Virus record (IMG/VR): IMGVR_UViG_3300029068_000004
Source: a virus
Lineage: Duplodnaviria > Heunggongvirae > Uroviricota > Caudoviricetes
Length of the DNA: 28,003 nt
Strand: one strand, 5' to 3'
Part shown: in pieces, positions 575 to 28,003 of the stretch
How positions within the stretch are numbered: position 1 is the first letter of the stretch
How the letters are laid out: every line of letters starts with the position of its first letter
The notes under the pieces: generated by a model
Databases searched by the model: none
What the model saw: the letters and a program-made list of their open reading frames with translations, nothing else
Told to the model about the DNA's origin: nothing
Translations under genes and position numbers: made by a program

Positions 575-600
575 GTCATAACACTGTGTTACCTGGCTAA

Positions 601-1200: not shown

Positions 1201-1222
1201 AATTACCTCTCGCTTTTCTGCA

Positions 1223-1249: not shown

Positions 1250-1267
1250 GTATCTGGGTTATAAAAT

Positions 1268-4663: not shown

Positions 4664-4723
4664 TCCTCACGCTCCATAAACGACAAAACCGCCCGGAGGC
4701 GGTTTCACATAAAACGTTTTGCA

Positions 4724-5941: not shown

Positions 5942-5946
5942 GGGAT

Positions 5947-6645
5947 TTACTGCGAAAGTTTGTTAATGGAAAGGAAGCCGCCAAAGTTGCCGACATTATT
6001 GCGGAACTTACAGCCACTCAGGCATTTGCTGCATTTATCCTTCGTGATTTCGGATGTCGGCTGGTCATATTCATCCGCGACCGCCGGACCGTGATAACCG
6101 CACTCATCACCGCGATAGGTCCAGGTGCAGGTATTAGCAAGCATGATGCGCCCCGGAAAAACAGCGCCGTCCGTTTCCGTCGGCGTGGACAGTACAAAGG
6201 AGGCACTGACCGCGCTCAGTTCGCTGCACTGCTCAATACGCCAGCGGCTGATCACCTCCTGCTCCGGATCGGCGTCACTGTTTCCGTTGACGAAGTTCAC
6301 CGCATCCAGAAAACGGGCGTAAACCTTACGCCTGACCACCGTTCCGCCGACCAGACTCTGCAGGTCTTCCGCCATCCCGGTGACCATGCCGTGCAGATTA
6401 GAGACTTTCAGCGTTGGCCTTGCACTGGCACCTTTGCCGTTCATCTCAAATCCACTCCCCTGAATGGGATAGGCCTGATACTGCCGACTCTGCCAGGTGA
6501 CAGACTCTCCTTTCTCGTTCTGCTCATTGCAGAAAAAGTAGCGATCCCCGCCTACCTCGGTCAGGTCGATTTCCCAGAGCACCACGCTGGCCGACTGCTC
6601 CGCACGAATGCATTCATTCAGCGTTTCCTGTTGTATGTCCTGCAT
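5947..6645 (-). CDS. L: Minor tail protein L
   Basis: 232-aa ORF, same length as lambda L and N-terminus [33 protein letters not shown] familiar from lambda L; M stop and L start overlap (TGATG). Confidence 0.9.
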   Translation of the reverse strand: MQDIQQETLNECIRAEQSASVVLWEIDLTEVGGDRYFFCNEQNEKGESVTWQSRQYQAYPIQGSGFEMNGKGASARPTLKVSNLHGMVTGMAEDLQSLVGGTVVRRKVYARFLDAVNFVNGNSDADPEQEVISRWRIEQCSELSAVSASFVLSTPTETDGAVFPGRIMLANTCTWTYRGDECGYHGPAVADEYDQPTSEITKDKCSKCLSGCKFRNNVGNFGGFLSINKLSQ

Positions 6646-6983
6646 CAGATCACCACTTCGTCAAACTGACACGAAAAATCGGTATAGGTGATATGTTCTG
6701 TCGCTGACCACGTTCGACACACCACTCTGATTTTTCTGTTAATACCAGGCGGGCGCCAAAAAAAAGATTTATAGCCTTCATGCCGGGCTAAAAATTTTTC
6801 AAATGAATCACGTTCATTCGCCTCAACTTTGAAATCACAGGTGAAAACGCGCAGAGAATGATTAAGTCCATTTGGACTTCGTTGCTCATAACCATCGCCA
6901 AATCTTACAGTTTTTATCGATGGTTTATTTTCTGTTTTCATTCCATCCTCTGGTAACCAGTGAAATTCTTCCGTATTAGCCAC
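6645..6983 (-). CDS. M: Minor tail protein M
   Basis: 112-aa ORF containing the VRFGDGYEQ...FLW...EQV core resembling lambda M. The start at 6983 is GTG with a GGGGGAA Shine-Dalgarno; an alternative ATG at 6941 is possible. Confidence 0.8.
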
Positions 6984-9900
6984 TTAACATTCCCCCATCA
7001 CGTCGCATATTTAACAGATTGCCCTGCACCCGCTGATCAACCATCCCCATAAGTGCTTTTATTGCCTGAGGGCCAATCTCTCCATTCTGGCCGTCATTTT
7101 GAATAGTGATTTGGTATACAGGGGCATAGGTAATATCTCCGCCTCCATTACCACTTTTACTATTAATAGCTCTGACACCAAGAGAACCATCGGAAGTTCG
7201 TGTTAATGGCATAATGGCTTCCGGACCAGCCTCACCAAAAACACCAGCCCCTTTTGCAAAAGCAAAAAATTGCGGGGAATCATAAATACCGTTCGAATAC
7301 GTGTTCAATGACGGAGACTCATAAACACCGCCCTTTGCATTCGGAATAAATTTACTAATAGCACTCCCGATAGTTCCTAAAATCCCCCCCGAAGAACTGT
7401 TACTAATGCTGTCGAAAATCCGAGTAATTGAAGCCTTTAATGCTATTCGACTAAGATCCGAAATCACGGAAGTAGCGAAAGAACGAAAATTTGCCTTGCC
7501 TGTCGTGACAAAATCACCCAGCGCATCGGTCATTCCATCAAACATCTGAGTCGTGGTTGATTTTATCTGCTCACTGATATCCTTAGTGTCATCCAGCCAG
7601 TTATTGAATCCCTGGGAGGCACCACTAACCCAGTCTCCTGCCTGAATATCGAGCTGCTCGTTTTTCTGTCTGACAATTTCTTTTTCTCGTTCCAGAGCAT
7701 CATTCAGAGCCTGCATTTTCTCCTGAAAAACATGATTTGACATCCCACGGGATTTATCTGCATAGTCACGTTCAAGTTGCAGACGCTGATTGTTATATTC
7801 ACGTTCAATCCGCAGTAATTCCTGCTGGCGTTGCTGATTTTTATCGCCAACCCCATAACCAGCAATCTGAATATCATACCCCTGTTGACGATTATCAATC
7901 GAAGCCTGCAATGAATCACGCCATGCAGCTATTTCGGCGGATTCCTTGATTAGCCTGTTATTTTTTTCAATCGCAACATTTTTCTCCATCAACGCGGTTA
8001 TTTCTTCCCGGTGTAAGAGAAGCGATTTCTGATCCTTGGTTAATTTCGATGACGGTCGTGACTCCAGGTCGGCAATCTGCTGACGCCACTTAACCAGTTC
8101 CTGTTCAGAGGAACTTAATTTAACGGTTAATTCAGTTTGTGAACTTAGTAACGCATTCTGTTGATTCAGATGATCAATCATTCGTTGGGCAGCATCATCC
8201 GAATAACCTTTCGCCTTTGGTTGCTTTGGATCTTTATAACGCTCATTTATTTGAGCGATAAGATTATTATATTCTTCCTTTGAATACTGACTCTTTAGTT
8301 TTTCCAGTTTTGCAAGTTCACTAGCTCTCTGCTGCTCCCGGGTCTGATATTGTTTTGAAAAGGCATCTGCTCTCTGTCTGAGTTCAATTCCTTCCTGTTG
8401 TCGCTTGTTGTAATCGTTTATTGATGAATTTAGTACGTCCTGAGCAATTTTTTCTGCTTGAAGTACGCCCAATTGCTGCTTTAATCGTGCCAGCCTTTTA
8501 TTTTGAGCTCCGCCATCTCCAATGCCACCTAACCCGAAAACTCCGGGTCGGGTATTTTTTTCTATTTCATCAATTTGACGGAGAACATCTGAGATTTTTT
8601 GATCAAGGGAGGCCTCACGGCCAATATCCAGCATGGAATCCCATGCCCATTTTGCGGAGTCTGCGACAGCTTTCCATGCAGTCTCAAGATAACCAAGATT
8701 TTCTTTAATCTGGTTGGTGCGCTGGATCATTGAGGATGAGTATGCTTCTGTCGCAATGCGGGCGGCCTCCTGCTGGTTCCCTTCATCCTGTAGCGCCTTA
8801 ATCTGGTTATAAGTCGCAATTGTCAGAAAATGGTACTGATCATTAAGTTTTGATATGGCACTGACAGGATCCTTTGCAATTTCATTGAAGTCATTAACCA
8901 GTTGTTCGGTTGATATTCCTGTTACTTCGCTCGTTTTTACTATCGCTGTCGTCACTTGCTCCAGCGAACTGCTCGCTACCTTTCCCGAACGCACAAGCTG
9001 GTTTAATACTGCCGCCGCAGCGCCAGTTGTCGAATCAGCCGCATTCCCGGCACGTTGAGCTATATCGGCCAATTGCCCGCTGGTTGTCCCCAACTGATTT
9101 CCGGTAAGAATAAGAGATTTATTAAATTCGTCCTGCTCCTGAGAGCCTTTATAGTAAGCCAGCCCTAAGACGCCAACGGCTGCTGCGGCCAGGGTAAAAG
9201 GATTAATTAATCCCAGCACATAAGAACCAACACCTTTGATCGCCGGGCCAATCCCACCGAACATATCTTTTAGCTGGCCGCCCTGCTGCATTAACACCAT
9301 AAAAGGCGACTGACCAGTGGACAACCCAACAACAATATCCGTCATTTGTGCAGGCAACATGCGCATAGCAAAAGCCGTTTGTTTTGCCGACATTCCGGTT
9401 TTGCTTAATTGAGATTGAGTAACCTCAAGCTCACTCCGCATAGCACGAAGTTTTCCAGAAAGTTCCTCATACATTTCAGGAGAGAGCATCCCCTTAGCTT
9501 TTGCTTCATTGAGCTGTTTCTGTTGTTCTACCAGACGATTAAAAGCAGTTCCGACAGGGTCAAGTTGAGCAATCAGACGTTGCAAAGCAGCAACCTGTTC
9601 ATCATGCGCTTTTGCTGCTTCTCGCTCTGCCTGAGCCTCTCCGGTAAGCTCTCGCCGTGTTTCCTGTATTTTTCGGCTATAATTCTCAAACTGAGAACCA
9701 TTTATTTTCCCGGATGCAAACGCAGCATTAAGTTCATCCTGCTGTTGTTCAAGATTTCTTAGCGCCGCAGCCAGAGGGTCGATCTTGTCCAGCATTCTTT
9801 GAAAGGCCTGAGCCTGCGCTTCCTGCTGGGCGGCAGCAAGTTTTCCGGCCTTCTCGGCTTCTCTCTGCGCTTGCGCAACCCCGCTCAATTCCTCTGTGGT

Positions 9901-10209
9901 TTCATTAAGTTTACGGACAAGAAATTCATATTCTTCTTTATCAATAAGCCCTTTATCGAAAAATTTCTTTAATTCAGAATAGCGTCGACCGACAGTATCA
10001 ATTGCGGCACCAACTGGATCAATAGCTGCTTTTAATTTTGCGAGCGCGTTCTTCTCATCTTCTGTTGCCTTAGTCACTTTCCCTGCGCTATTTGCAGCAG
10101 TTTCCCCGGCCTGCGTCATTTTGACTAATGAGGAGGTCAGATTGTCAGCATTATTTTTTGCTCCAGTGCTATCAATAATTATTGCGAGACGCGAGGTTTG
10201 CTCTGCCAT
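6976..10209 (-). CDS. Tail tape measure protein
   Basis: 1077-aa ORF immediately upstream of M and downstream of the G/G-T chaperones; coiled-coil-rich with repeated A/Q/E/K segments and a glycine-rich hydrophobic segment, typical of tape measure proteins. Confidence 0.9.
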
Positions 10210-10236
10210 TTATTAAAACTCCAGACAACAAAAAGC

Positions 10237-10260
10237 CCACCGAAGTGGGTTTCAGGCGAC
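10237..10260 (-). promoter_or_regulatory. Short stem-loop (CCCAC-UUCG-GUGGG) with U-rich tail just upstream of the tape measure start
   Basis: Minus strand GAAACCCACUUCGGUGGGCUUUUUGUUG lies in the roughly 160-nt non-coding gap between the T frame stop and the tape measure ATG. Confidence 0.3.
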
Positions 10261-10372
10261 ATAATAGTAGATATAGCGATTACGAGGCCACGCAATGCTT
10301 TTCTCCAGGAGCATCATCGATTTAATTAAAGACACCATCACATCTCTGTAACAGAGTGTACGTAATTAACAA

Positions 10373-18562: not shown

Positions 18563-19870
18563 TTAAATCCGAAGTGATGTGACTCTTCCGATCGGTTTGA
18601 CAATAGGGAATTGCTTAACGATGAAATAACCTCCGGCATCATTCGGGTGATCATTGCCAGATTTTTTATCAGGCTCCCCCTTCTCATCCCAGACCTGTTG
18701 CTCCAGAGATTCGGCATATAACGGGCAACGCTTCACATTAACTTTATAGCGACGCTCACCATTGGCATTGCAGAACATTGCATTCATTGAGTTAACGCGA
18801 TCTTTTACTGGCGGGTTCGAGCTGTTCACCACAACGTTAAAACCAGCCTGCTTAAGCTGGGCTATATCCGTCGTACTTGCGTTACTTGATTTTCTGGAAT
18901 CCCCGGAAGCATCTGGATAAATATAAATTTCCCTCACTTTCCGGTAATCATTCCCATCATACAGCCAGAAGCGTTCTTTAATGATGCGGATCATATCCGG
19001 CGTATCGTAGGCATTGATGATTTCAGTTACCGCACATGGAAGCCCCAAACGCAGCACATGGACGATTCCCGCCATCTTTCCAACGTTAAAATCCATCCCA
19101 ATATAAATCGGCTCCCCTGGCTGCTCCACTTCTTCGCAATTATTCAGTTTCCGGTCAAACTGATGGTAAACAGTACCACTTGTCAGGTTAGTAAACTGTC
19201 CTCGAAGATAGGCTTTAATCAGCTCTGGAGGGTATGATTCAAGAAGCGAAGGAATGTAATCTGCTGGCAGGTTCTTTTCATTATCGAAAGTAGATGCCTG
19301 CACCAGACCATACAGTGAGGCCAGCTCTGTTTTTTCACGCACGGCTTTAACAAACTGCTCGTAGACAAATTTGAATCCTTCCGGCGTGGTTGTAACGTCA
19401 ATACCGTTGCGAAGTCCATCAATCTTATAACGCATACGTGCAATTATCTTGCGCCACGCCGTTCTGGCTTTTTCCTTCGGCAAAATGTCCAGTTCATCCA
19501 CCAACGCATTACCAATTTTGAAACCGACGATCGTTTGTGGCTTCTCCATCGATCTGCAGATAGTGGTTCCCCGATACTGGCGTCCGTAATAAAAGTGAAC
19601 CTCTTTATTTCCCTCATTAATTTTTACGTTCAATCCCCAGTCAGCAGCAACTTCTTCCACTGTAGGGTAAAAAATATCGCGAATTTGGGGATACGTTGGC
19701 GCAAAATATCCCTGATTTATACCTGGATGCTCCCAAATCCCCTTGCATATGCCGCCACACCCAACCCATGTTTTGCCCGAGCCAAAACCAGCAATATAGG
19801 CTTTAAATTTATGGGGCATTGAAAGAAATCGCGCCTGAGGCACATTAAGCGTCGGAGAGATCATCTTCAT
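18563..19870 (-). CDS. Terminase large subunit
   Basis: Walker A P-loop AGFGSGKT near the N-terminus, acidic motifs, size about 435 aa; probable ATG at 19870 (the track start at 19873 is GTG). Confidence 0.9.
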   Translation of the reverse strand: MKMISPTLNVPQARFLSMPHKFKAYIAGFGSGKTWVGCGGICKGIWEHPGINQGYFAPTYPQIRDIFYPTVEEVAADWGLNVKINEGNKEVHFYYGRQYRGTTICRSMEKPQTIVGFKIGNALVDELDILPKEKARTAWRKIIARMRYKIDGLRNGIDVTTTPEGFKFVYEQFVKAVREKTELASLYGLVQASTFDNEKNLPADYIPSLLESYPPELIKAYLRGQFTNLTSGTVYHQFDRKLNNCEEVEQPGEPIYIGMDFNVGKMAGIVHVLRLGLPCAVTEIINAYDTPDMIRIIKERFWLYDGNDYRKVREIYIYPDASGDSRKSSNASTTDIAQLKQAGFNVVVNSSNPPVKDRVNSMNAMFCNANGERRYKVNVKRCPLYAESLEQQVWDEKGEPDKKSGNDHPNDAGGYFIVKQFPIVKPIGRVTSLRI

Positions 19871-20939
19871 CACTCCTTACTCTGGCATCAACCACATTAA
19901 TATTGATCGCCACAGGCTGGGGATGTTCATTATCCTCCACCGTTTCGATCTCTTTGCGCAGCTTCTGGTTTTCTATTCTGCGCCGTTCAATTTCCAGTTC
20001 CTGTAGCCGCTTATCTGCACATAATGCCCCGCCAGCAGAAAGCAAACGCAACAATTCACGCCGGGCGGCAGCCTTATCCTCCAGCAGGATCTCAACACCG
20101 TATTTTCCGAGCTTTGACCCTGCATATAATTGCCGCGCATCCCCATCAAGCAGTGTGGTATCAGCCATATAAAGCTGTCCCGTTCCCTCACCGCAGCACT
20201 TCGGGCAATCCGGATTGGGTATGGCGTTATCAACAAAGCCGAGGCCTCCATATTCCGGCTCGGATTTACCATCTCTGGAGGCCTGTGCCGCAGCCTTATC
20301 GAATTCTGCAATATCACGCCACTGGTAGAGATGATTCTCGCCCCAGCAATAACGGCAGTTAACACGGCGAAATTGTGCCAACTGATTGGGGTCGGCCTGG
20401 ACAATGGCCATCAACTGGCTCACCAGTAAATCCAGGTCTGCGGTATAGCGTTTCTGGTACTGATTGCGGAAGTAGCTGATAGCACGATAAACCCTGGCAT
20501 TTCTAAGCATACGACTGGCGTTGCTGTTAGCTGTCGCACCTTGCCCCTCATAACCGGCTAGTCGGTACGCCTCTGTCGGCTTTTTACCCTGAGCAACAAG
20601 CATCGCAAACTTAGCCTGCTGGTCAGAAATGCCGAATTCATCGGGACAGAACGAAAATTCCTCCGCGTCGCCCTCATTCAGGCCCGCATCGAATACTGGC
20701 TTTTTTTCCTGAGATTTTTCGTTCCGCTTTTGTGCAGTCTGCGCAGATTTTTTCTGCGCACTTTTTTGCGCAGTTTTGCGCATTTCTGTCTGCGCATTTT
20801 TCGGAGGTTTTTTGATGTAACGACGGGCTGTTGCGTAATTCAGTCCCCTTGCTTCACACCATGCCACCGGAGATATACCGGAGCGGGTGTATTCAGCAAT
20901 ATACTCCTGCTGCAACGCCCCCCAGTCCGGTCTGCTCAT
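19845..20939 (-). CDS. Terminase small subunit (Terminase_2-like core with N-terminal HTH and C-terminal Cys-rich region)
   Basis: Residues around ...AKFAMLVAQGKKPTEAYRLAGYEGQGATANSNASRMLRNARV... fit the small-terminase pattern from memory; N-terminal HTH-like segment; CRYCW...CPKCC cysteine cluster; directly upstream of the large terminase. Confidence 0.7.
   Translation of the reverse strand: MSRPDWGALQQEYIAEYTRSGISPVAWCEARGLNYATARRYIKKPPKNAQTEMRKTAQKSAQKKSAQTAQKRNEKSQEKKPVFDAGLNEGDAEEFSFCPDEFGISDQQAKFAMLVAQGKKPTEAYRLAGYEGQGATANSNASRMLRNARVYRAISYFRNQYQKRYTADLDLLVSQLMAIVQADPNQLAQFRRVNCRYCWGENHLYQWRDIAEFDKAAAQASRDGKSEPEYGGLGFVDNAIPNPDCPKCCGEGTGQLYMADTTLLDGDARQLYAGSKLGKYGVEILLEDKAAARRELLRLLSAGGALCADKRLQELEIERRRIENQKLRKEIETVEDNEHPQPVAININVVDARVRSDEDDLSDA
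20731..20796. repeat. Array of palindromic TGCGCA hexamers (5 perfect + 1 TGTGCA) with T/A tracts, inside the 5' part of the small terminase gene
   Basis: TGTGCA at 20731; TGCGCA at 20740, 20755, 20767, 20777 and 20791; spacing 10-15 bp. Encodes the low-complexity peptide ...KTAQKSAQKKSAQTAQK... Confidence 0.8.
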
Positions 20940-20942
20940 CAG

Positions 20943-21194
20943 TTAGTCCTGATTTTTATCCACCCTGAGTAGTTCGCGCAGAGCAAAGGCATCCCCTTTT
21001 CTGGCAAGCTTAAACAATGCCGCTCGTAACTCGGCTTCACCTTTCGCTCTGCCCTTACGGATGGCCGCATAAAAATCTGTCATTGCTTCCCGATTTTCTT
21101 TCAGTCGGTTCAGATCAACATCCAGAACGTCAGCGATTTGTTGTGCAGTCATCCGGCACGCTGCCAGAGACTCGACTTTCGAATACGGAATCAT
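20943..21194 (-). CDS. Small HTH DNA-binding protein (function unknown)
   Basis: 83-aa ORF with an HTH-like segment MTAQQIADVLDVDLNRLKEN; its stop lies 3 nt upstream of the small terminase ATG. Confidence 0.45.
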   Translation of the reverse strand: MIPYSKVESLAACRMTAQQIADVLDVDLNRLKENREAMTDFYAAIRKGRAKGEAELRAALFKLARKGDAFALRELLRVDKNQD

Positions 21195-22062
21195 TTGTCA
21201 CCCCTATTGATATGCAGGGTGTCTTCTTCCTGTATTTTTCGTGAAGGATTTTTACTGCAGCGTTGTTCCAGGTGACCTGATGGTGAATGCGTTTATGGCT
21301 GGCACCCATCAGTGAGATTTTTACGCACGACGGCGCATACATGACGGAGTAAAAACTTTTAACGTAGGTTCCGGAATCCAGATACAGCTCGGTCATTCCG
21401 CCGCTGTTTTTCTGCGTCTGTTTCTGCCCTAACTGGACAGCACCGATCGTCATAAACAATTCACCACAGCGACCGAGATTCGTGTACGTATTCACATCCT
21501 CGTTAATGCGCCCCATGAATGAGAACGGTCGATCAACCGAACAGATAAAGCTGTTCATTGCCTTGCGTTTCACCCACGAAGCATGGCCGCCATTGTCACC
21601 AAGAAAATCCCCTCCCTGCGACATAGCGATGGAAAGAGCAGGTATTGATTCGTAGTACGCCAGCATTTCAGAAAGGATCGCATCCAGTTTCCTTATCGGA
21701 AAATAGGCCTGGTCATAGTTGCGATCCACCCGAAACTGGAACTCGTGATAATCATCATCGAGCTGAATGAAGTATTTACACCCGACCAGTTTTGCCTGGT
21801 CGAAACAGGCATTACGGGCGTAAAAAATTGAGCGGCGGTCACAGAAATTATCGGCTTCGTCAAAACGACTGGCGATATCGGCTTTGGAAAACACCAGCAC
21901 CTGTTCACCAAATTCAGCCATGTACTGATGCCGTGTCTTATCTTCATCATCAACAACGATAAAAATTTTCCCGGTATAGCCAGCACGACGCAACGTCCGG
22001 TAAGTCAGAACTTTGTCCGGTCGCCCGTGAGTCAGAATAAAGGCGCAAAAATCATCACGCAT
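21130..22062 (-). CDS. Hypothetical enzyme with GT-A (family-2-like) glycosyltransferase sequence pattern
   Basis: 310-aa ORF with ATG at 22062. Sequence pattern CAFILTHGRP ... KIFIVVDDED ... YARNACFDQAKLVGCKYFIQLDDDY resembles the GT-A N-terminal strand plus ARN...G.Y...LD.DD (DXD) signature; no C-terminal transmembrane segment. Confidence 0.4.
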   Translation of the reverse strand: MRDDFCAFILTHGRPDKVLTYRTLRRAGYTGKIFIVVDDEDKTRHQYMAEFGEQVLVFSKADIASRFDEADNFCDRRSIFYARNACFDQAKLVGCKYFIQLDDDYHEFQFRVDRNYDQAYFPIRKLDAILSEMLAYYESIPALSIAMSQGGDFLGDNGGHASWVKRKAMNSFICSVDRPFSFMGRINEDVNTYTNLGRCGELFMTIGAVQLGQKQTQKNSGGMTELYLDSGTYVKSFYSVMYAPSCVKISLMGASHKRIHHQVTWNNAAVKILHEKYRKKTPCISIGVTNDSVFESRVSGSVPDDCTTNR

Positions 22063-22846
22063 ATTCCTCCTCCTCACCACCATGCATGATCTCCACCATG
22101 CGCTGCGTCATCCGGACAAATCCATTTTCAATAGCCTGCTGATAATCAATGATCACCAGCGCCGACTCCTCGAAAAAACACTGAATTTCAGCGGGGGCGT
22201 GAGCGTAATAGTCCGCAATTCTGCTGAAATTAAACACCGTGTGACGTTCTGCCGCACACAGGAGGAATTTCTCAATATCAGGCTCAAGGGACGCCGAACG
22301 TATCCGGCTGATCAGCTCCTGAGTTTTCGTATCGTCGTACAGTTCACTGATATCCGGTTTACCGCCCGACGGCTCATAAACAGGCGTATCAATTTTCGTC
22401 GTATACGGCTCCTCCTCATTTCCTGTACCGGGCAAAACATCCGTCAACAGTTCATCAATTTCTGTCGGGATGAAGCCTGTCAGGGAGACATCAAAATCAG
22501 CATTGATTAGGTCCGACAGCTCCATCCGCAACAGATCTTCATCCCAGCCAGCATTCATCGGCAGGCGATTATCTGCCAGGCGGTACGCCTTTTTCTGCTC
22601 ATCCGTCAGGCCAGACAGAACAATGACCGGAACAGAATCCATTTTGAGCATTTCAGCCGCCATAACACGACCGTGACCCGCAATAATTTCGCCCTTTTCG
22701 TCAATCAGCACCGGATTAGTCCAGCCGAATTGCTTAATACTTTCTACCAGTTGTGCCACCTGCTCAGGGCTGTGCGTCCTGGCGTTGTGCGCATACGGTG
22801 ACAATTCTTGTAATGGGCGATAGACTATCTTTAATTTCTCGCTCAT
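22055..22846 (-). CDS. ParB-like (ParB/Srx N-terminal domain) protein with a C-terminal domain of unknown function
   Basis: N-terminus ...LSPYAHNARTHSPEQVAQLVESIKQFGWTNPVLIDEKGEIIAGHGRVMAAEMLKMDSVPVIVL matches the ParB N-domain pattern including GHxR. Ends with the acidic tail GGEEEEYA, whose codons (GAGGAGGAGGAA) form the Shine-Dalgarno for the downstream gene. Confidence 0.7.
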   Translation of the reverse strand: MSEKLKIVYRPLQELSPYAHNARTHSPEQVAQLVESIKQFGWTNPVLIDEKGEIIAGHGRVMAAEMLKMDSVPVIVLSGLTDEQKKAYRLADNRLPMNAGWDEDLLRMELSDLINADFDVSLTGFIPTEIDELLTDVLPGTGNEEEPYTTKIDTPVYEPSGGKPDISELYDDTKTQELISRIRSASLEPDIEKFLLCAAERHTVFNFSRIADYYAHAPAEIQCFFEESALVIIDYQQAIENGFVRMTQRMVEIMHGGEEEEYA

Positions 22847-22873
22847 ACAGCCTTGCTTTATGAATAAAACGCA

Positions 22874-22897
22874 CCCCAGCAGCCAGTGCTACTGGGG
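22874..22897 (-). terminator. Terminator-like hairpin between trkG and the ParB-like gene
   Basis: Minus strand CCCCAG-(12-nt loop)-CUGGGG followed by UGCGUUUUAUUC. Confidence 0.4.
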
Positions 22898-22983
22898 ACG
22901 GAGGTATTGCTGGTAAAGTTAGGTATTGGATCAATGAGTGAGTCAACATAATATTAAACTCACAATTATAAATCAGCCATATA

Positions 22984-24441
22984 TTAGGAGCGCCAAAAAA
23001 AACCTGAAAACAATATAATAACAGGATAAATTTCAAGGCGACCAAGAATCATAGCTATGCACATTAAACATTTTGCAATGTCATTAAGCACTCCGAATGA
23101 CGATGCAGTAGCCCCAAAACCTAATCCCATATTATTAATACATGCAGCCACTGTTGCAAATGATGTAAGAAAATCATATCCCATACCATTTAACACCAGT
23201 ATAAAAAACACCGTGAAGAGAGTATAAAGAAAAAAGAAACTCCATACAGACCTCATTACACGATCTGTAACTATCTTCCCTCCTACATTTACACTCAACA
23301 ACGCTCTGGGATGAGAAAGCTGATTTATCTCGTGTTTGCTTTGTTTGAAAAGTATAAGAAATCGAAGTGACTTAATTCCACCACAAGTTGAACCTATACA
23401 TCCCCCAAAGAAACTTGACAACAGCAAAAACACTATCGTGTGCGTGGGCCAACTTGCATAATCCTGCGTAGCTAAACCATTATCAGTGAGCATGGAGCTG
23501 GCAAGAAAAAACGAATGAATAAAACTTCCATGCAAGTCATACATACCTATATGCCAGACCTGGAAAGAGGTAACAATGATCACCCCTAAGGCTATTAACA
23601 GAAAGAAACGAAGTTCAATATCTCTGATTAAAGGTTTTATCGTTTTCCTGCTAATAACAATATACCAAAGAGTGAAGTTGAAAGCCGATAGCAGGGAAAA
23701 AGAACCAGCCACCAGCTCAACCAAATAGTTATTAAAATATCCGATACTCTCGCTATGAGTTGAGAAACCACCAAGCGAAACTGTGGAAATCCCGTGACAA
23801 ATAGCATCAAACAAAGGCATTCCTGCAAGTCTATAACAGACAATACAAGCAATACCTAATAAAGAATAAGTTATCCACAGTGTCCGTGACGTATCGGCCA
23901 GGCGGGGAGTGAGTTTGTCATCCTTAAATGGCCCCGGCATTTCTGACTGATAAAGCTTTGCACCACCAATACCCAATAATGGCAATACAGCAACCGCCAG
24001 AACAATAACTCCTAAACCACCTATAAAATTTAACTGTGACCGATAGTACAAATATGCCCGAGGTAATGAACTAACATCATCAATTACAGTTGCTCCTGTT
24101 GTTGTTATTCCAGAAACCCCTTCAAACAGAGCATCAATGAACGTTAAATTAAGTTCTGAGTCAATCCATAAAGGGAATGCACTAATAACAGAAAACAAAA
24201 TCCAAAACATTACAATTATAATAAACCCATCACGGGTACGTAATTGAATGCCAGATTTCTTAGTTGTATACCACGCTCCGCCACCAATGCAAAAAAATAT
24301 AACGAAAGTTATAAAGAAAACAAACAGGCTTTTTTCTTTATAAAACAATGCTACAACCATTGGTGGCAACATTGAAAGACTATAGAGCCAAACCAGGAAC
24401 CCACACATATGAGTAACAACTCTTACATGAGATGTATTCAT
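22984..24441 (-). CDS. trkG: TrkH/TrkG-family potassium uptake protein (moron)
   Basis: Polytopic membrane protein; from ATG 24441 it reads MNTSHVRVVTHMCGFLVWLYSL..., as E. coli Rac-prophage TrkG (485 aa) from memory. A TTG at 24459 with an AAGGTGG Shine-Dalgarno is an alternative start. Visibly AT-rich versus neighbours. Confidence 0.9.
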   Translation of the reverse strand: MNTSHVRVVTHMCGFLVWLYSLSMLPPMVVALFYKEKSLFVFFITFVIFFCIGGGAWYTTKKSGIQLRTRDGFIIIVMFWILFSVISAFPLWIDSELNLTFIDALFEGVSGITTTGATVIDDVSSLPRAYLYYRSQLNFIGGLGVIVLAVAVLPLLGIGGAKLYQSEMPGPFKDDKLTPRLADTSRTLWITYSLLGIACIVCYRLAGMPLFDAICHGISTVSLGGFSTHSESIGYFNNYLVELVAGSFSLLSAFNFTLWYIVISRKTIKPLIRDIELRFFLLIALGVIIVTSFQVWHIGMYDLHGSFIHSFFLASSMLTDNGLATQDYASWPTHTIVFLLLSSFFGGCIGSTCGGIKSLRFLILFKQSKHEINQLSHPRALLSVNVGGKIVTDRVMRSVWSFFFLYTLFTVFFILVLNGMGYDFLTSFATVAACINNMGLGFGATASSFGVLNDIAKCLMCIAMILGRLEIYPVIILFSGFFWRS

Positions 24442-24578
24442 ATCTAAATATTCTTTCAATTATAACCACCTTGCTGCAATATTATGATTATACTGTATAA
24501 AATTTAACTCCTCTTAGATCTTACTTCACTGTTCCTTATGAAACAATCATCAAAATGAATCATATTGTAGTTAAGATT

Positions 24579-25043
24579 TTACTTTAAACACTGCTCGGTT
24601 ATGTATTGCTGAGCACCTTCAAGTTGGGCCTGCATCATTACCAGTCGTTCCCGGAGGGTGAAATAATCCCGTTCAGCGGTGTCTGCCAGTCGGGGGGAGG
24701 CTGCATTATCCACGCCGGAGGCGGTGGTGGCTTCACGCACTGACTGACAGACTGCTTTGATGTGCAACCGACGACGACCAGCGGCAACATCATCACGCAG
24801 AGCATCATTTTCAGCTTTCGCATCAGCTAACTCCTTCGTGTATTTTGCATCGAGCGCAGCAACATCACGCTGACGCATCTGCATGTCAGTAATTGCCGCG
24901 TTCGCCAGCTTCAGTTCTCTGGCATTTTTGTCGCGCTGTTCTTTGTAGGCGATGGCGTTATCACGGTAATGATTAACACCCCATGACAGGCAGACGACGA
25001 TGCAGATAACCAGAGCGGAGATAATCGCGGTTACTCTGCTCAT
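24579..25043 (-). CDS. Rz: Rz i-spanin
   Basis: 154 aa with an N-terminal transmembrane segment and coiled-coil body; lambda-Rz-like sequence; start overlaps the R stop (ATGA). Confidence 0.9.
24638..24823 (-). CDS. Rz1: Rz1 o-spanin lipoprotein, embedded in Rz in the +1 frame
   Basis: 61-aa [27 protein letters not shown]... with a lipobox (VVGC) and proline-rich segment; wholly inside Rz, as in lambda. Confidence 0.85.
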
Positions 25044-25516
25044 ACCTCAATCTCTCTGACCGTTCCGCCAGCTTCTTTGAATTTTGCAATCAGACTGTCA
25101 GCCTTATGCTCGAACTGACCATAACCAGCGCCCGGCAGTGAAGCCCATATATTGCTGCAACGGTCGATAGCCTGACGGATATCACCGCGATCAATCATCG
25201 GCAAAGCGCCACGCTCTTTAATCTGCTGCAGCGCTACAGCATCCTGACTTTCTGGAGAAAAATCTTTCAGGCCAAGTTGCTTGCGGTAGGCATCCCACCA
25301 GCGTGAAAGAAGCTGGTAACGTCCAGCGGCTGTTGATTTGAGTTTCGGATTTAGCGTGACAAGTTTGCGGGGGTGATCGGAGTAATCAGTGAACAGTTCG
25401 CCACCGACAATAACATCATAACCGTGATTTCTGGTTTTCTGCCGTCCGTTATCTGTTCCTTCTGACCATGCCACCATATCAAGGAAAGCTTTACGCTGGG
25501 AATTAAGTGTCTGCAT
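25040..25516 (-). CDS. R: Endolysin (lambda R-type lytic transglycosylase)
   Basis: 158 aa; sequence ...[33 protein letters not shown]... is near-identical to lambda R from memory. Confidence 0.95.
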
Positions 25517-25519
25517 TAA

Positions 25520-25861
25520 TTACTCCTTATGGGCACCGAACTTGTTACCGATGACCCTCATTGCCGCACCACGAATAGCATCAACACCAATCAGCCCCAC
25601 CCCACCACCAATGGCAACAGAAAGTGATTTAGGCCATCCGACATACTCAAGCGCGGATGCAAAGGTCAGCGTCAGAGCACCACAAAGCAGAATCTCAAGC
25701 GTTTTTCGTTTCCAGCCGCCGCCACCGCCAAAATAGGCAATGCGCAAACCAGCCATAATAATTGACATAACCACTGCACCCAGCGGCGTATCTCCACGCC
25801 ACCAACTTTGTAAGAGTTCCAGTAAGTCAGGCCAGGAATGAGGGGCATTGTGCATTTTCAT
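25520..25861 (-). CDS. Holin (three predicted transmembrane segments) with M-K-M dual-start motif
   Basis: Immediately upstream of the endolysin; ATG-AAA-ATG at 25861-25853 preceded by a GGAGGTG Shine-Dalgarno; three hydrophobic stretches; not lambda S in sequence. Confidence 0.65.
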   Translation of the reverse strand: MKMHNAPHSWPDLLELLQSWWRGDTPLGAVVMSIIMAGLRIAYFGGGGGWKRKTLEILLCGALTLTFASALEYVGWPKSLSVAIGGGVGLIGVDAIRGAAMRVIGNKFGAHKE

Positions 25862-25956
25862 AAGCCTCACCTCCGAGAGTTCGGATGGTGCTAAGTGTAA
25901 GATTCAGGCTCTCAGGCTTGCTAACAAGAAGTCGAGGATGTTTCCGGAGCCTAACA

Positions 25957-25984
25957 ACGAAAAAGCCCCGGGACATGCCGGGGT
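25957..25984 (-). terminator. Rho-independent terminator-like hairpin upstream of the holin gene, downstream of the moron
   Basis: Minus strand CCCCGG-CAUGUC-CCGGGG followed by CUUUUUCGUUGUU. Confidence 0.55.
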
Positions 25985-26078
25985 CAGATGGAGTGCCAGA
26001 TTAAGCTTCTGGCGGTATATACTCGTGTTTGATATCGTTAAATCGCCAAAAGTAACAATTCAAACAAAGAGGATTTTT

Positions 26079-26240
26079 ATGTCTGAAAAAAACAAGCCAC
26101 AAGATGAAAATAAACCTCAGCAACCCGTGGCACCAAAACCAACTCCAACACAAAGTACTACAGACTTTGCTACACGTCGTGTTTTTGTTGGAGATTCTGC
26201 CGACTCAGTCATTGAACATATAAAAAAACAGCCGAGATAA
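26079..26240 (+). CDS. Small hypothetical protein (53 aa), convergent with and overlapping the 3' end of the membrane-protein gene
   Basis: Plus-strand ATG at 26079 with an AAGAGGA Shine-Dalgarno 5 nt upstream; MSEKNKPQDENKPQQPVAPKPTPTQSTTDFATRRVFVGDSADSVIEHIKKQPR; hydrophilic and proline-rich. Confidence 0.35.
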   Translation: MSEKNKPQDENKPQQPVAPKPTPTQSTTDFATRRVFVGDSADSVIEHIKKQPR

Positions 26241-26778
26241 ACATCGCCGCTACCGGAGCAAGGATGGTATACATCCTTGCTTTATCGAGACTCGTGCGGA
26301 TTTTCTCATTTTCCAACAGTAACTCTCTTGCTGTATCACTCAAGTCAACAAGGCGATACCTTCGTATAAGCGGCAATAACTTATCAGGTCCTAAATATCC
26401 TGCATCAGCGAATATTTTAAAGCTCGAGGGCTCCATATCCTTATATTTTTCATGATATAGATGATCAGGAGGGGCATTGATCAGGCCCCTAACCTTCACA
26501 GATAAACCAGTACATATCAAGTAAATGGCGCACCATGTCCATAGTAATGTAAATGTGGTAATTCCGGCGGTGAGAAAATCGAAATTAGTTTTCTGTGTCA
26601 GCAATAAAAAAGATGAACCAATTCCAACAATCTGAATGTTCAGAAGTTTGTATCCATTCTCAACATTGGTTTTGTTAGAAAGATGAATCTCTCGTATCGT
26701 CTCTTCCCCTTGTTTTTCAAGATAATCGACGAGCTCATCATCTACTCCTAAAAAATAATCTTTAGGTAGTTCTCTCAT
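26209..26778 (-). CDS. Hypothetical membrane protein (189 aa, about three predicted transmembrane segments), moron
   Basis: ATG at 26778 with a GGAGGTG Shine-Dalgarno; hydrophobic segments IQIVGIGSSFLLL, AGITTFTLLWTWCAIYLICTGL and YTILAPVAAMFISAVFLYV; AT-rich; I recognise no family. Confidence 0.6.
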   Translation of the reverse strand: MRELPKDYFLGVDDELVDYLEKQGEETIREIHLSNKTNVENGYKLLNIQIVGIGSSFLLLTQKTNFDFLTAGITTFTLLWTWCAIYLICTGLSVKVRGLINAPPDHLYHEKYKDMEPSSFKIFADAGYLGPDKLLPLIRRYRLVDLSDTARELLLENEKIRTSLDKARMYTILAPVAAMFISAVFLYVQ

Positions 26779-26806
26779 CTCACCTCCACATCCTGTACTG
26801 AAAACA

Positions 26807-26815
26807 ATTTTACCA
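26807..26815 (-). promoter_or_regulatory. Candidate extended -10 promoter (TGGTAAAAT) for the moron gene
   Basis: Minus strand TGGTAAAAT about 30 nt upstream of the ATG at 26778; no good -35, as is usual for extended -10 promoters. Confidence 0.3.
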
Positions 26816-26887
26816 GAATGTCTCGATTCTAGGTATTCCGCCAGGAATCTCGTTCCAGAAATGAAACATCAGGTTCGCCAGTACCAG

Positions 26888-26916
26888 AAACAACAAAACC
26901 CGCTCAATGGCGGGTT
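26888..26916 (-). terminator. tR'-like intrinsic terminator downstream of the late promoter
   Basis: Minus strand AACCCGC-CAUUGA-GCGGGUU followed by UUGUUGUUU, about 60-80 nt downstream of the PR'-like promoter. Confidence 0.5.
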
Positions 26917-26974
26917 CTGGTAAAGTTCATGCGCTTGGTTCGCCTCGCGATACAGCTTTGCGAAGCATACCGGA

Positions 26975-27003
26975 ATTGAAGCAGTTTATGCGTAAAAAAT
27001 CAA
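26975..27003 (-). promoter_or_regulatory. PR'-like late promoter candidate immediately downstream of Q
   Basis: Minus strand TTGATT - 17 nt - TTCAAT; the -35 overlaps the Q stop codon, the expected position of a lambdoid late promoter. Confidence 0.4.
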
Positions 27004-27542
27004 GCTATTTTTTGAGCAAATGATTCTCGCATGGGAATATATAGGGCATACTCAGCAACAGCCAACCAATTAGCAATTCGCTTTTCGCATGTGCTAAAAC
27101 ACCACTCAGGATGTGCATCATTTAGCAATTCAGCCATTTTGCGCTTAGTCATCCCCCGTCCTTCATACCGTTGCCGGAGGACACTAATCAATCCAGGATG
27201 CTCTGCCAGCACCTCACTTATGACTCTATCAATACATAACGCCTCTGCATCAGTACAATGCGCCAGCCAGGTCTTTTGCTTGCCATTGATCATCTCTCGC
27301 AAAAACGCTTCCAGCTCAGGTTTCTCTATTCCCGCTTTTTTCATCCTGCGCAGGGCTTCATTGACGGCTGTTTTCGTCAATTTTTTGGATGCCAGCAACT
27401 GGTTAAACATATTTCCCGTCTTACCGCCGCCAATATACGACCAGCGCCCCCACATGCGCAGTTTTCCCTGAATCCAGACACTTTCCAGCGTGGTGAGACG
27501 AAGGTGTTCCCCGCTTTTGCCTGTATTTGTTGGGTAAATCAT
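27000..27542 (-). CDS. Putative late antiterminator Q-like protein
   Basis: 180 aa from ATG 27542 (overlaps the upstream stop as ATGA); sits directly upstream of the PR'-like promoter/terminator and lysis genes; contains a Cys pair cluster (C...C...C..C). Assigned mainly by synteny. Confidence 0.5.
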   Translation of the reverse strand: MIYPTNTGKSGEHLRLTTLESVWIQGKLRMWGRWSYIGGGKTGNMFNQLLASKKLTKTAVNEALRRMKKAGIEKPELEAFLREMINGKQKTWLAHCTDAEALCIDRVISEVLAEHPGLISVLRQRYEGRGMTKRKMAELLNDAHPEWCFSTCEKRIANWLAVAEYALYIPMRESFAQKIA

Positions 27543-27829
27543 AAATAACCTTCCTTTCTCCAGATTTCTTGTGTGCGAAAAACACCTTCTGCATGCATCA
27601 GGCGTAATTCTTCTTTGGTGTAATCGCTGGTTTTTACCCGCCCGTCGATTAAATCGTGGCATGAGCTACAGGCAATCGCTGCCTGCATATCGTGTGGTTT
27701 TGTCGCTGTTCCGCACGTCCCCGACAGCCTGTAATGCGCCAGCACAGATGTTTCGGGATTGTGATTGCAGTAGCCAGGAATTCTGACGGTGCACATCTGC
27801 CCCCGCGCCGCTTTACGTAAATCCACCAT
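27539..27829 (-). CDS. YbcO-like (DUF1364) putative zinc-binding nuclease, nin-region protein
   Basis: 96 aa MVDLRKAARGQMCTVRIPGYCNHNPETSVLAHYRLSGTCGTATKPHDMQAAIACSSCHDLIDG... with a Cys/His-rich pattern as I recall for DLP12 YbcO-family proteins. Confidence 0.5.
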   Translation of the reverse strand: MVDLRKAARGQMCTVRIPGYCNHNPETSVLAHYRLSGTCGTATKPHDMQAAIACSSCHDLIDGRVKTSDYTKEELRLMHAEGVFRTQEIWRKEGYL

Positions 27830-27831
27830 TA

Positions 27832-27904
27832 CGCAAACTCCAGTAACTGTGCGGCCACATTTTCGACTTCCTCCGGAGAGGAAAATTTACGGAACAGGAT
27901 CCAG
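27832..27904 (-). pseudogene. 3' remnant of a nin-region gene truncated by the IS insertion
   Basis: Minus-strand frame open from the IS boundary to a TAA that overlaps the ybcO-like start (TAATG); it encodes ...LFRKFSSPEEVENVAAQLLEFA with no start codon inside the prophage-derived part. Confidence 0.35.
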
Positions 27905-28003
27905 TGATCTTACCCAGCAATAGTGGACACGCGGCTAAGTGAGTAAACTCTCAGTCAGAGGTGACTCACATGACAAAAACAGTATCAACCAGTAAAAAAC
28001 CCC
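27905..28003 (+). mobile_element. Left end of an IS3-family insertion sequence (terminal inverted repeat plus start of orfA), continuing beyond the window
   Basis: Sequence TGATCTTACCCAGCAATAGTGGACACGCGGCTAAGTGAG... then GAGGTGA Shine-Dalgarno and ATG at 27970 encoding MTKTVSTSKKP..., which I recognise as the IS3 left end / OrfA N-terminus. Confidence 0.6.

What the first reader, a model, noticed from the sequence alone, without database searches (positions are those of the whole stretch)
22874..24580. Potassium transporter gene trkG carried as a moron between the lysis cassette and the packaging genes
A full-length TrkH/TrkG-family K+ uptake protein sits inside the phage late operon in a visibly AT-rich segment, with TATAAT-like elements upstream and a terminator-like hairpin downstream. 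trkG is known to reside in the E. coli Rac prophage, but K-12 Rac has lost the head and tail genes. This window appears to be an intact-looking Rac-type relative, with trkG followed by the complete packaging, head and tail genes, so it is a useful reference for how Rac decayed.
Basis: partly seen in the sequence, partly recalled or inferred. Interest (0 to 1): 0.4.

Follow-up and report, generated by a model that had tools for sequence, protein, structure and literature searches.

The report
trkG cargo gene in full-length Rac prophage
This is the well-known potassium-uptake gene trkG in its usual place in the E. coli Rac prophage, here in a nearly complete copy that shows which pieces the laboratory K-12 copy has lost; it is correct but ordinary.

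Summary
Window 22984-24441 (minus strand) encodes a TrkH-family protein whose 485 residues are identical to E. coli K-12 TrkG. It lies in about 1.7 kb of AT-rich DNA (36.7% GC against 48.7% for the window), between the Rz/Rz1 spanin genes and a ParB-like gene (full-length ynaK) that precedes the terminase genes.

The window is the late region of a full-length Rac-type prophage. Aligning it with K-12 Rac gives three clean deletions: window 11033-22592, about 999-9274, and everything beyond 25024.

The copy is not fully intact. Tail gene K has a private 65-bp frameshifting deletion, and an IS3 element starts at 27905.

Relatives on the same backbone carry either no cargo gene (E. coli W) or the LT-II enterotoxin operon (strain Ceylon31) where trkG sits, so trkG is exchangeable cargo. 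The downstream hairpin belongs to the phage backbone, not to trkG.

None of the main points is new. trkG in Rac (1991), its own constitutive promoter, partial H-NS repression and full-sized Rac-like prophages are all published. trkG is in 1551 of 5426 complete E. coli genomes, and 677 keep at least 80% of this late region.

Minor by-product: the conserved start codon is probably a TTG 18 nt upstream, giving 491 aa.

The parts
22984..24441 (-). trkG coding sequence as annotated in K-12 (485 aa). It is the TrkH-family membrane subunit of the Trk K+ uptake system.
   Evidence: Pfam TrkH E = 5e-145. Identical protein to K-12 b1363, with one synonymous nucleotide difference. PDB TrkH 4j9u/3pjz E = 1.2e-120. 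D327, five residues after the third pore-loop glycine G322, is present (PMC9898762).
24442..24459 (-). Probable true 5' end of trkG: a TTG start at 24459-24457 adds six residues (MKEYLD), giving 491 aa.
   Evidence: TTG or GTG at -18 with a Shine-Dalgarno sequence is conserved in E. coli, E. fergusonii, Citrobacter, Pectobacterium and Enterobacter. The annotated ATG position is CTG, ATT or TTA in three of them. A stop codon lies immediately upstream of the TTG.
24460..24588 (-). AT-rich upstream region (25.5% GC) containing the Shine-Dalgarno AAGGTGG (24472-24466), a perfect TATAAT (24492-24487) and a weaker TTTAAA-18-TATGAT site (24588-24559). This is the putative autonomous trkG promoter region.
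   Evidence: Sequence read; scan; GC. The promoter itself is from the literature: an RpoD Genomic SELEX peak at trkG in Rac (PMC5811629) and luciferase fusions (PMC9898762). Homology to Rz genes of prophages without trkG stops at 24589-24654.
22864..22897 (-). GC-rich hairpin (10-bp stem, 4-nt loop) plus a short T-tract, 28 nt upstream of the ynaK start. It is a terminator-like element of the phage backbone that also ends the trkG transcription unit.
   Evidence: Relatives with no cargo or with LT-II share the 3' arm and T-tract and have a different but complementary 5' arm. Homology with them ends at 22889-22896.
24579..25043 (-). Rz i-spanin with embedded Rz1 o-spanin (24638-24823), the last genes of the lysis cassette. 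K-12 rzpR is this gene minus its first 7 codons.
   Evidence: Pfam Phage_lysis E = 5.6e-53. K-12 homology ends at 25023.
25040..25870 (-). Endolysin (25040-25516) and lambda-type holin (25520-25870). Both are absent from K-12 Rac.
   Evidence: Pfam Phage_holin_3_1. CH459 annotates a GH24 lysozyme and a lambda-family holin here.
22055..22846 (-). Full-length ynaK, a 263-aa protein with a ParB N-terminal domain. K-12 keeps only the first 84 codons.
   Evidence: Pfam ParB_N. The K-12 breakpoint lies at 22592/22593.
21130..22083 (-). TET-associated-glycosyltransferase (TAGT, 'GREB1-related') protein, the partner gene of ynaK.
   Evidence: Pfam TAGT E = 1.5e-34. The same ParB plus glycosyltransferase pair occurs in Lactobacillus phages.
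11191..20939 (-). Packaging, head and neck genes plus the tail tube: TerS, TerL, portal (DUF4055), head morphogenesis protein, scaffold, major capsid, adaptor, head closure, neck, tail terminator and tail tube.
   Evidence: Pfam, PHROGs, CH459 annotation.
601..11142 (-). Tail genes: assembly chaperone (= ydaY, 10681-11142), tape measure (6976-10209; K-12 ynaA is its first ~312 codons), M, L, K (frameshifted), I, J and Lom.
   Evidence: PHROGs; alignment with K-12.
11033..22592 (.). DNA deleted in K-12 Rac (11.56 kb). The deletion fuses the ynaK 5' end to the 3' part of the chaperone gene (ydaY).
   Evidence: Junction sequence ...TATCGCTGCTT|CTGCTCATCC..., with 2-bp TT microhomology.
999..9274 (.). 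DNA deleted in K-12 Rac (about 8.3 kb). The deletion fuses the tape-measure 5' part (ynaA) to lom (lomR). K-12 lomR also carries IS5.
   Evidence: The left edge is approximate because the lom alleles diverge over the last ~40 bp.
25024..27904 (.). Start of the third K-12 deletion (7.86 kb in CH459 coordinates). It removes the Rz start, endolysin, holin, the Q-like antiterminator (DUF1133) and further genes, up to ydaW (DUF1627).
5714..5726 (-). Site of a 65-bp deletion in tail gene K between imperfect GGCAGA(C/G)CA repeats. It causes a frameshift.
   Evidence: The best matches (25 listed; 4359 genomes matched in all) all carry the extra 65 bp.
27905..28003 (.). End of an IS3-family element that interrupts the DUF1367 gene upstream of the Q-like gene.
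   Evidence: 100% matches to IS3 transposase ends. Homology with CH459 stops at 27905.

Best explanation
trkG is a host-benefit cargo gene ('moron') in the late region of a Rac-type lambdoid prophage. It sits in a cargo slot between the lysis cassette (holin, endolysin, Rz/Rz1) and the ParB-like/TAGT/terminase block.

It encodes the membrane subunit of the Trk K+ uptake system. In K-12 this subunit works with host TrkA (and SapD) and gives Na+-dependent K+ uptake.

In the lysogen it is transcribed from its own sigma-70 promoter in the 25%-GC spacer after Rz and is partly repressed by H-NS. During lytic growth, Q-antiterminated late transcription would read through it, and through the hairpin before ynaK, into the packaging genes.

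The gene was captured from an enterobacterial chromosome or island. Only the coding sequence is recognisably related to its nearest homologues.

The window is a nearly complete copy of the phage from which K-12 Rac derives. K-12 Rac arose by three illegitimate deletions plus an IS5 insertion, and trkG and its promoter survived all of them.

Shown here: identity, composition, boundaries, synteny, deletion breakpoints, alternative cargo in relatives, chromosomal context of homologues.
From the literature: transport function, TrkA dependence, promoter, H-NS repression.
Inferred: read-through by Q-modified polymerase, direction of capture.
For: - Identity and family.
- Composition.
- K-12 synteny and breakpoints.
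- Full-length Rac next to uspF/ompN (the genes that flank Rac's ttcA site in K-12) with the racR/recE early region in CH459.
- Prevalence: trkG in 1551 of 5426 complete genomes; at least 80% of the 25-kb late region in 677.
- Boundaries of trkG-specific DNA, about 22890-24588.
- Same backbone without trkG (E. coli W, RM13745) or with the LT-II operon in the slot (Ceylon31, agreeing with PMC3252337).
- Nearest homologues are 79% (E. fergusonii), 77% (Citrobacter) and 75% (Pectobacterium), plus Enterobacter. All are in non-phage contexts, with about 70% nucleotide identity confined to the CDS.
- TrkH-family genes are otherwise almost absent from phage records.
- Own promoter: RpoD Genomic SELEX peak (PMC5811629) and luciferase fusions and qRT-PCR (PMC9898762). 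K-12 expresses trkG although the Q gene and late promoter region are deleted.
- H-NS repression and Na+ dependence: PMC9898762.
Against: - No exact empty site was found. No complete E. coli genome (0 of 5426) has this Rz within about 850 bp of ynaK. The relatives without trkG also have a different lysis cassette, so the left insertion boundary is inferred from Rz homology only.
- The promoter and terminator patterns are not enriched over shuffled sequence.
- The hairpin is a backbone feature rather than part of the cargo.
- The window itself contains neither the immunity region nor the attachment sites, so its 'Rac' status rests on near-identical CH459 and on K-12 synteny.
- The donor is unknown; the best homologue is only 79% identical.
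- No virion-derived record of this phage was found. The 'phage' records that carry trkG are in-silico prophage regions with chromosomal flanks.
Confidence: 0.92

Rival explanations
1. trkG has no promoter of its own here. It is simply one more gene of the Q-dependent late operon, is expressed only after induction, and so serves the phage during lytic growth (for example to keep up cell K+ and turgor before lysis) rather than the lysogen.
For: It lies in the late operon in the same orientation as all late genes. The promoter-like matches are no more frequent than in shuffles. The hairpin after it is a backbone element.
Against: K-12 lacks the Q-like gene, the late promoter region, the holin and the endolysin. 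It still expresses trkG at about the level of trkH, with a SELEX-mapped constitutive RpoD promoter and active promoter fusions (PMC5811629; PMC9898762). The gene and its upstream spacer survive in 1551 genomes, of which only 677 retain at least 80% of the 25-kb late region.
Confidence: 0.05
2. The AT-rich trkG segment is an ancestral part of this phage lineage rather than an acquired insert. Relatives without it (E. coli W, Ceylon31) lost it when their lysis cassettes were exchanged.
For: No exact empty site exists among 5426 genomes. Every prophage with this Rz allele next to ynaK has trkG. E. ruysiae and Shigella flexneri copies have the same arrangement.
Against: GC3 is 32% against 52-55% in the two neighbouring genes, Rz and ynaK. 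The TrkG clade is chromosomal or island-borne in Enterobacter, Pectobacterium, E. fergusonii, Citrobacter and Serratia. TrkH-family genes are otherwise nearly absent from 50,697 phage records. A cellular K+ transporter that needs host TrkA is not a phage function.
Confidence: 0.05
3. The window is not a Rac relative in the strict sense. It is a different lambdoid phage that shares only a recombined Rz-trkG-ynaK module with Rac.
For: Lambdoid phages are mosaics. The J/stf end is only 92-95% identical to CH459 and K-12. The endolysin/holin segment is exchanged in E. ruysiae and Shigella. The window lacks the immunity and integration regions.
Against: K-12 remnants outside the module also map onto the window in order at 98.3-98.6%: ydaY, ynaA (tape measure) and lomR. 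The 98.9%-identical CH459 prophage has the Rac early region at 99.2% identity to K-12, next to uspF/ompN, the genes that flank Rac's integration site in K-12.
Confidence: 0.03

Closest known systems
E. coli K-12 trkG (b1363) in the cryptic Rac prophage (Schlosser et al. 1991, cited in PMC9898762; Tanudjaja et al. 2022, PMC9898762)
   Same: The protein is identical, with one synonymous base change. The flanks are the same (rzpR/rzoR upstream, ynaK downstream). The upstream spacer and low GC (38%) are the same.
   Different: Here the neighbours are whole genes, and the terminase, head and tail genes follow. K-12 has three deletions and an IS5 insertion.
Full-sized Rac-like prophages of type II enterotoxigenic E. 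coli that carry LT-II and a pertussis-like toxin (Jobling & Holmes 2012, PMC3252337; Jobling 2018, PMC5917428; example Ceylon31)
   Same: The late backbone is the same: ParB-like ynaK, TAGT, TerS, TerL and a DUF4055 portal. The cargo slot is the same, between the lysis genes and ynaK. The homology boundary is the same, at the hairpin before ynaK.
   Different: The cargo is the LT-II A/B operon instead of trkG. The lysis cassette differs (two holins and a GH108 lysozyme, with no Rz next to the slot). A second toxin pair sits in the slot between Q and the holin.
Classical lambdoid morons (Juhala et al. 2000 and Hendrix et al. 2000, as cited in PMC3252337), for example lom/bor of lambda or stx between Q and S
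   Same: A single host-acting gene of deviant composition, expressed from the prophage, inserted between late-operon genes and absent from close relatives.
   Different: The cargo is a 12-helix-class K+ transporter subunit that depends on host TrkA. That is unusual cargo, and TrkH-family genes are almost absent from other phage records. The terminator after it is shared with the backbone.
Vibrio parahaemolyticus TrkH (PDB 3PJZ; TrkH-TrkA 4J9U)
   Same: Same family over the full length (E = 1.2e-120, residues 7-485).
   Different: TrkG belongs to a separate enterobacterial clade. It is about 41% identical to enterobacterial TrkH by tblastn and is Na+-dependent (PMC9898762).

Membership tests
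TrkH/TrkG K+ transporter family (Pfam PF02386) | Full-length match to the family profile above the curated cutoff | tested here: met
   484.2 bits against a cutoff of 27; profile positions 3-500 of 502. PDB TrkH E = 1.2e-120.
TrkH/TrkG K+ transporter family (Pfam PF02386) | Orthology with E. coli TrkG rather than TrkH, including D327 five residues after the third pore-loop glycine | tested here: met
   100% amino-acid identity to K-12 b1363. The motif TDNGLATQD has G322 and D327 (feature defined in PMC9898762).
TrkH/TrkG K+ transporter family (Pfam PF02386) | K+ uptake activity dependent on TrkA (and SapD/TrkE) | not testable with these tools
   Known for the identical K-12 protein (PMC9898762). 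trkA is not in the window.
Phage moron (cargo gene) | Lies between genes that are adjacent, or separated by other cargo, in related phages | tested here: met
   E. coli W and RM13745 have a lysis cassette, a 404-bp spacer, then ynaK. Ceylon31 has the LT-II operon there. Caveat: their lysis cassettes differ, and no exact empty site exists.
Phage moron (cargo gene) | Base composition different from the surrounding phage genes | tested here: met
   38.0% GC (GC3 32%) against 50-52% for the two neighbouring genes, Rz and ynaK (GC3 52-55%).
Phage moron (cargo gene) | Own promoter active in the lysogen | not testable with these tools
   The sequence has a TATAAT at 24492-24487, but the scan is not above chance. 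The literature shows a constitutive RpoD promoter and active fusions in K-12 (PMC5811629, PMC9898762).
Phage moron (cargo gene) | Own terminator | tested here: inconclusive
   A hairpin plus T-tract lies at 22897-22864. However, its 3' arm and T-tract are shared with relatives that lack trkG, so it belongs to the backbone.
Rac prophage | Colinear homology with the K-12 Rac late remnants (rzpR, rzoR, trkG, ynaK, ydaY, ynaA, lomR, stfR) | tested here: met
   Four colinear blocks at 94.9-99.8% identity.
Rac prophage | Rac immunity and early region (racR, ydaS/T, recET, kilR, sieB) and integration at ttcA | tested here: inconclusive
   These are outside the window, which ends in IS3 at 27905. The early-region genes are met in the 98.9%-identical CH459 prophage, which lies next to uspF/ompN, the genes that flank Rac's ttcA site in K-12; the ttcA/integrase end of CH459 was not fetched. 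Both are also met in record ON470595, which has ttcA followed by the integrase.
Intact (inducible) prophage | All essential late genes have open reading frames | tested here: not met
   Tail gene K is frameshifted by a 65-bp deletion. IS3 interrupts the DUF1367 gene upstream of the Q-like gene.

The most novel reading that the evidence does not exclude
The junction between the lysis cassette and the ParB-like gene of Rac-type phages is a recurrent cargo slot. It is bounded on its 3' side by a conserved read-through terminator whose 5' arm is rebuilt to stay complementary with each cargo: trkG, the LT-II toxin operon, or nothing. In addition, TrkG as annotated in K-12 since 1991 is six residues too short; its real start would be a conserved TTG with a strong Shine-Dalgarno sequence. 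Neither point changes what the element is.
Probability: 0.5. Interest if true: 0.2.

Novelty: already known. Interest (0 to 1): 0.15.

Why it matters
The finding has little consequence beyond housekeeping. It gives a clean coordinate map of how K-12 Rac derives from a full-length phage, with three deletions that have 2-bp or smaller junction homologies. It shows that trkG occupies a slot that carries the LT-II enterotoxin operon in other strains. It also suggests a six-codon correction to the trkG start. The biology itself is already in the literature: a prophage-borne, H-NS-damped, Na+-dependent K+ transporter kept by about 29% of complete E. coli genomes.

Tried and rejected
- Exact empty site: I searched with a synthetic Rz|ynaK junction and found none in 5426 genomes.
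- ynaK relatives in other species: a scan of GTDB species representatives found only Escherichia and Shigella copies, all with trkG, plus distant alphaproteobacterial ParB domains.
- Moron boundaries from the nearest homologues: homology is confined to the CDS, so it is uninformative.
- Virion-derived records: I checked whether the 'phage' records with trkG come from virions. They are predicted prophage regions with chromosomal flanks.
- RNA and defence searches: Rfam found no RNA family in the window. PADLOC gave no defence-system hit for trkG, TAGT or the 189-aa ORF, and only a ParB-like N-terminal match for ynaK.
- Jobling 2016 (PMC4957749) is not in the paper library, so its content is cited only through PMC5917428.
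- Superinfection-exclusion or defence role for TrkG: considered and not pursued, because nothing supports it.
Full report
**1. What is at the coordinates**

All long ORFs of the window lie on the minus strand. One runs 22984-24459 from a TTG; the ATG used in the K-12 annotation is at 24441. The 485-aa product matches Pfam TrkH over the whole profile (E = 5e-145) and the solved TrkH structures 3PJZ and 4J9U (E = 1.2e-120).

Against K-12 MG1655 trkG it has one synonymous nucleotide difference and no amino-acid difference. It keeps D327, five residues after the third pore-loop glycine. Tanudjaja et al. link that residue to Na+ dependence (PMC9898762).

The segment is clearly AT-rich:
- CDS: 38.0% GC (GC3 32%).
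- 137-bp spacer between Rz and trkG: 25.5% GC.
- 86 bp after the stop codon: 32.6% GC.
- Rz: 52.3% GC; ynaK: 49.9% GC.

**2. Upstream and downstream signals**

Two perfect TATAAT hexamers lie upstream, at 24492-24487 and 24464-24459. The second is the spacer between a strong Shine-Dalgarno sequence (AAGGTGG, 24472-24466) and the TTG at 24459. That leaves the first as the plausible -10 element.

A GC-rich hairpin with a short T-tract lies at 22897-22864. The generic promoter scan is not enriched over shuffled sequence, so these patterns are compatible with a promoter and a terminator but do not prove either. Experimental support comes from the literature (section 6).

**3. The surroundings**

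Upstream of trkG in the direction of transcription are:
- a DUF1364 gene and a DUF1133/Q-like antiterminator (27000-27662);
- a 189-aa membrane ORF in a second AT-rich patch;
- a lambda-type holin, an endolysin, and Rz with embedded Rz1.

Downstream are:
- a full-length ParB-N-domain protein (ynaK, 263 aa) and a TAGT-family glycosyltransferase;
- a small ORF, TerS, TerL, a DUF4055 portal, a head-morphogenesis protein, scaffold and major capsid protein;
- four connector and neck proteins, the tail tube, a tail assembly chaperone, the tape measure, M, L, K, I, J and Lom;
- the start of the side tail fibre.

**4. Relation to K-12 Rac**

BLAST of the window against NC_000913 1410000-1436000 gives four colinear blocks:

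| Window | Identity | K-12 genes |
|---|---|---|
| 22593-25023 | 99.8% | rzpR/rzoR, trkG, ynaK |
| 9275-11032 | 98.6% | ydaY and ynaA |
| 785-958 | 98.3% | lomR part 1 |
| 1-790 | 94.9% | lomR part 2 and stfR |

K-12 therefore differs by three deletions and one insertion:
- Deletion of window 11033-22592 (11.56 kb). It joins codon 84 of ynaK to the chaperone gene at a 2-bp TT overlap.
- Deletion of about 999-9274. It joins the first ~312 codons of the tape measure to lom.
- A deletion that starts at 25024, seven codons into Rz. In the coordinates of strain CH459 it removes 7.86 kb up to the DUF1627 gene, whose remnant is ydaW.
- IS5 in lomR.

K-12 'ydaY' is thus the 3' part of a tail assembly chaperone gene, and 'ynaA/tmpR' is the tape-measure N-terminus.

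**5. Is it Rac, and is it intact?**

The best complete-genome match, CH459 (98.9%), has this late region joined to racR, ydaS-V, sieB, kilR, racC and recE. That early region is 99.2% identical to K-12, and the prophage lies next to uspF/ompN, the genes that flank Rac's ttcA integration site in K-12. E. ruysiae and Shigella flexneri carry the same Rz-trkG-ynaK-terminase arrangement.

The window itself is not fully intact. Tail gene K has a 65-bp deletion between imperfect 9-bp repeats, and this shifts the frame. The best matches (the 25 listed records; 4359 genomes matched in all) all have the extra 65 bp, so the lesion looks private to the source strain. The last 99 bases of the window are the end of an IS3 element that interrupts the DUF1367 gene. 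The J and stf end is a diverged mosaic, 92-95% identical.

**6. Is trkG cargo?**

trkG occurs in 1551 of 5426 complete E. coli genomes, at 99% identity or more in nearly all of them. At least 80% of the 25-kb late region is kept in 677 genomes.

A synthetic Rz|ynaK junction finds no exact empty site. A probe across ynaK and the trkG 3' end does find relatives that lack trkG:
- E. coli W and RM13745 have two holins, an M15 endolysin, a small ORF, a 404-bp spacer, and then ynaK-TAGT-TerS-TerL.
- The bovine strain Ceylon31 has the LT-II enterotoxin A/B operon between a GH108 lysozyme and ynaK on the same backbone. It also has a pertussis-like toxin pair in the slot between Q and the holin. This matches Jobling & Holmes (PMC3252337) and Jobling's 'full-sized Rac-like prophages' (PMC5917428).

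Homology of these relatives to the window stops at 22889-22896, inside the hairpin. They share the 3' arm and T-tract, and each has a different 5' arm that is complementary to it. The terminator-like element therefore belongs to the backbone.

On the other side, Rz genes of prophages without trkG lose homology at 24589-24654. The trkG-specific DNA is thus about 22890-24588.

**7. Origin**

Outside the E. coli cluster the nearest proteins are 79% (E. fergusonii), 77% (Citrobacter) and 75% (Pectobacterium) identical. Enterobacter, Buttiauxella, Serratia and Xenorhabdus follow at 60-72%.

Their genomic contexts are not phage:
- E. fergusonii: next to porin genes.
- Pectobacterium: after ychF.
- Enterobacter: between ftsP-plsC-parC and a radical-SAM gene.
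- Serratia: in an island with a primase and IS fragments.

An 88%-identical partial allele in E. albertii lies in a 35%-GC island next to nleF. Nucleotide homology to the window is about 70-80% and confined to the CDS. TrkH-family genes are otherwise almost absent from 50,697 phage records. The ten 'phage' records that carry trkG are predicted prophage regions with chromosomal flanks.

The likeliest history is capture of a wandering enterobacterial accessory gene by the Rac lineage. The donor is unknown.

**8. How it works**

From the literature:
- TrkG is a functional, Na+-dependent K+ uptake subunit that uses host TrkA.
- Its transcript is about as abundant as that of trkH, and H-NS/StpA repress it partly but do not silence it (PMC9898762).
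- RpoD holoenzyme Genomic SELEX finds one of the few constitutive prophage promoters at trkG. The authors conclude that trkG was inserted together with its promoter (PMC5811629).
- trkG and recE are among the best-conserved Rac genes across strains (PMC5700373).

K-12 lacks the Q-like gene and the region between it and Rz, so its trkG expression cannot depend on the late promoter.

Inferred: after induction, Q-modified polymerase reads through trkG and the hairpin into ynaK and the packaging genes.

**9. By-product: the start codon**

At -18 from the annotated ATG, five genera all have a TTG or GTG preceded by a Shine-Dalgarno sequence. The annotated ATG position is CTG, ATT or TTA in Citrobacter, Pectobacterium and Enterobacter. 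In E. coli a stop codon directly precedes the TTG. TrkG is therefore probably 491 aa.

**10. Verdict**

The qualifications are that the copy is nearly, not fully, intact, and that the hairpin belongs to the backbone. Everything essential is already published, and the arrangement is present and annotated in hundreds of RefSeq genomes. Interest is low.

Noticed in passing
window 5263-5941 (break at about 5714-5726): Tail gene K (MPN/NlpC-P60 minor tail protein) carries a 65-bp deletion between imperfect GGCAGA(C/G)CA repeats, which shifts the frame. The best matches (25 listed; 4359 genomes matched in all) all have the undeleted form, so this copy is probably unable to make tails.
   Followed up: yes
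window 27905-28003: The window ends in the terminus of an IS3-family element inserted in the DUF1367 gene, upstream of the DUF1364 and Q-like genes. Strain CH459 has a different IS3 insertion, in the portal gene.
   Followed up: partly
window 24442-24472: The start of trkG is probably the TTG at 24459 (Shine-Dalgarno AAGGTGG, 6-nt spacer), giving 491 aa. This start is conserved in five genera, whereas the K-12 ATG is not.
   Followed up: yes
window 21130-22846: ynaK (ParB N-domain) and a TAGT-family ('GREB1-related') glycosyltransferase overlap and sit directly before the terminase genes. The same ParB plus glycosyltransferase pair precedes the packaging genes in Lactobacillus phages phiLdb, c5 and jlb1. 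No TET/JBP partner is present, and the function is unknown; DNA modification or a packaging-linked role is possible.
   Followed up: partly
window 26001-27000 (ORF 26209-26778, minus strand): A second AT-rich patch (40% GC) lies between the Q-like gene and the holin. It holds a 189-aa predicted membrane protein (phrog_11870, no Pfam or PADLOC hit). Relatives have tRNA genes (E. coli W, ON470595) or a pertussis-like toxin pair (Ceylon31) in this slot, so it is a second cargo position.
   Followed up: partly
window 22864-22897; L027 7248-7300; L035 5246-5300: The hairpin before ynaK keeps its 3' arm and T-tract in all relatives, but its 5' arm differs and stays complementary (window CCCCAGTAGC, Ceylon31 GCTCACCAGCAGC, W CCCGC...). 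This suggests selection for a terminator or attenuator at the cargo/ynaK boundary.
   Followed up: partly
window 10373-11142: K-12 'ydaY' is the 3' part of a tail assembly chaperone gene (phrog_313). The small ORF after it (10373-10606, phrog_1189) sits where the frameshift-extended chaperone product would be encoded. No slippery site was looked for.
   Followed up: no
window 1-5726: The J, lom and stf end is only 92-95% identical to CH459 and K-12, with a non-aligning gap at 1939-2172. The rest of the window is 99.5% identical. This indicates a recombinational exchange of the host-range end.
   Followed up: no
L030 (E. albertii contig), 1-6822: A diverged trkG allele (88% amino-acid and 79.5% nucleotide identity, CDS only) lies in a 35%-GC island beside nleF, a Metallophos gene and a DUF1482 gene. 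This is a second, independent mobile context for the TrkG clade.
   Followed up: partly
summary (E. coli genomes): Fifteen of the 1558 trkG matches lie on records labelled as plasmids. Whether these are phage-plasmids, integrated copies or assembly artefacts was not examined.
   Followed up: no
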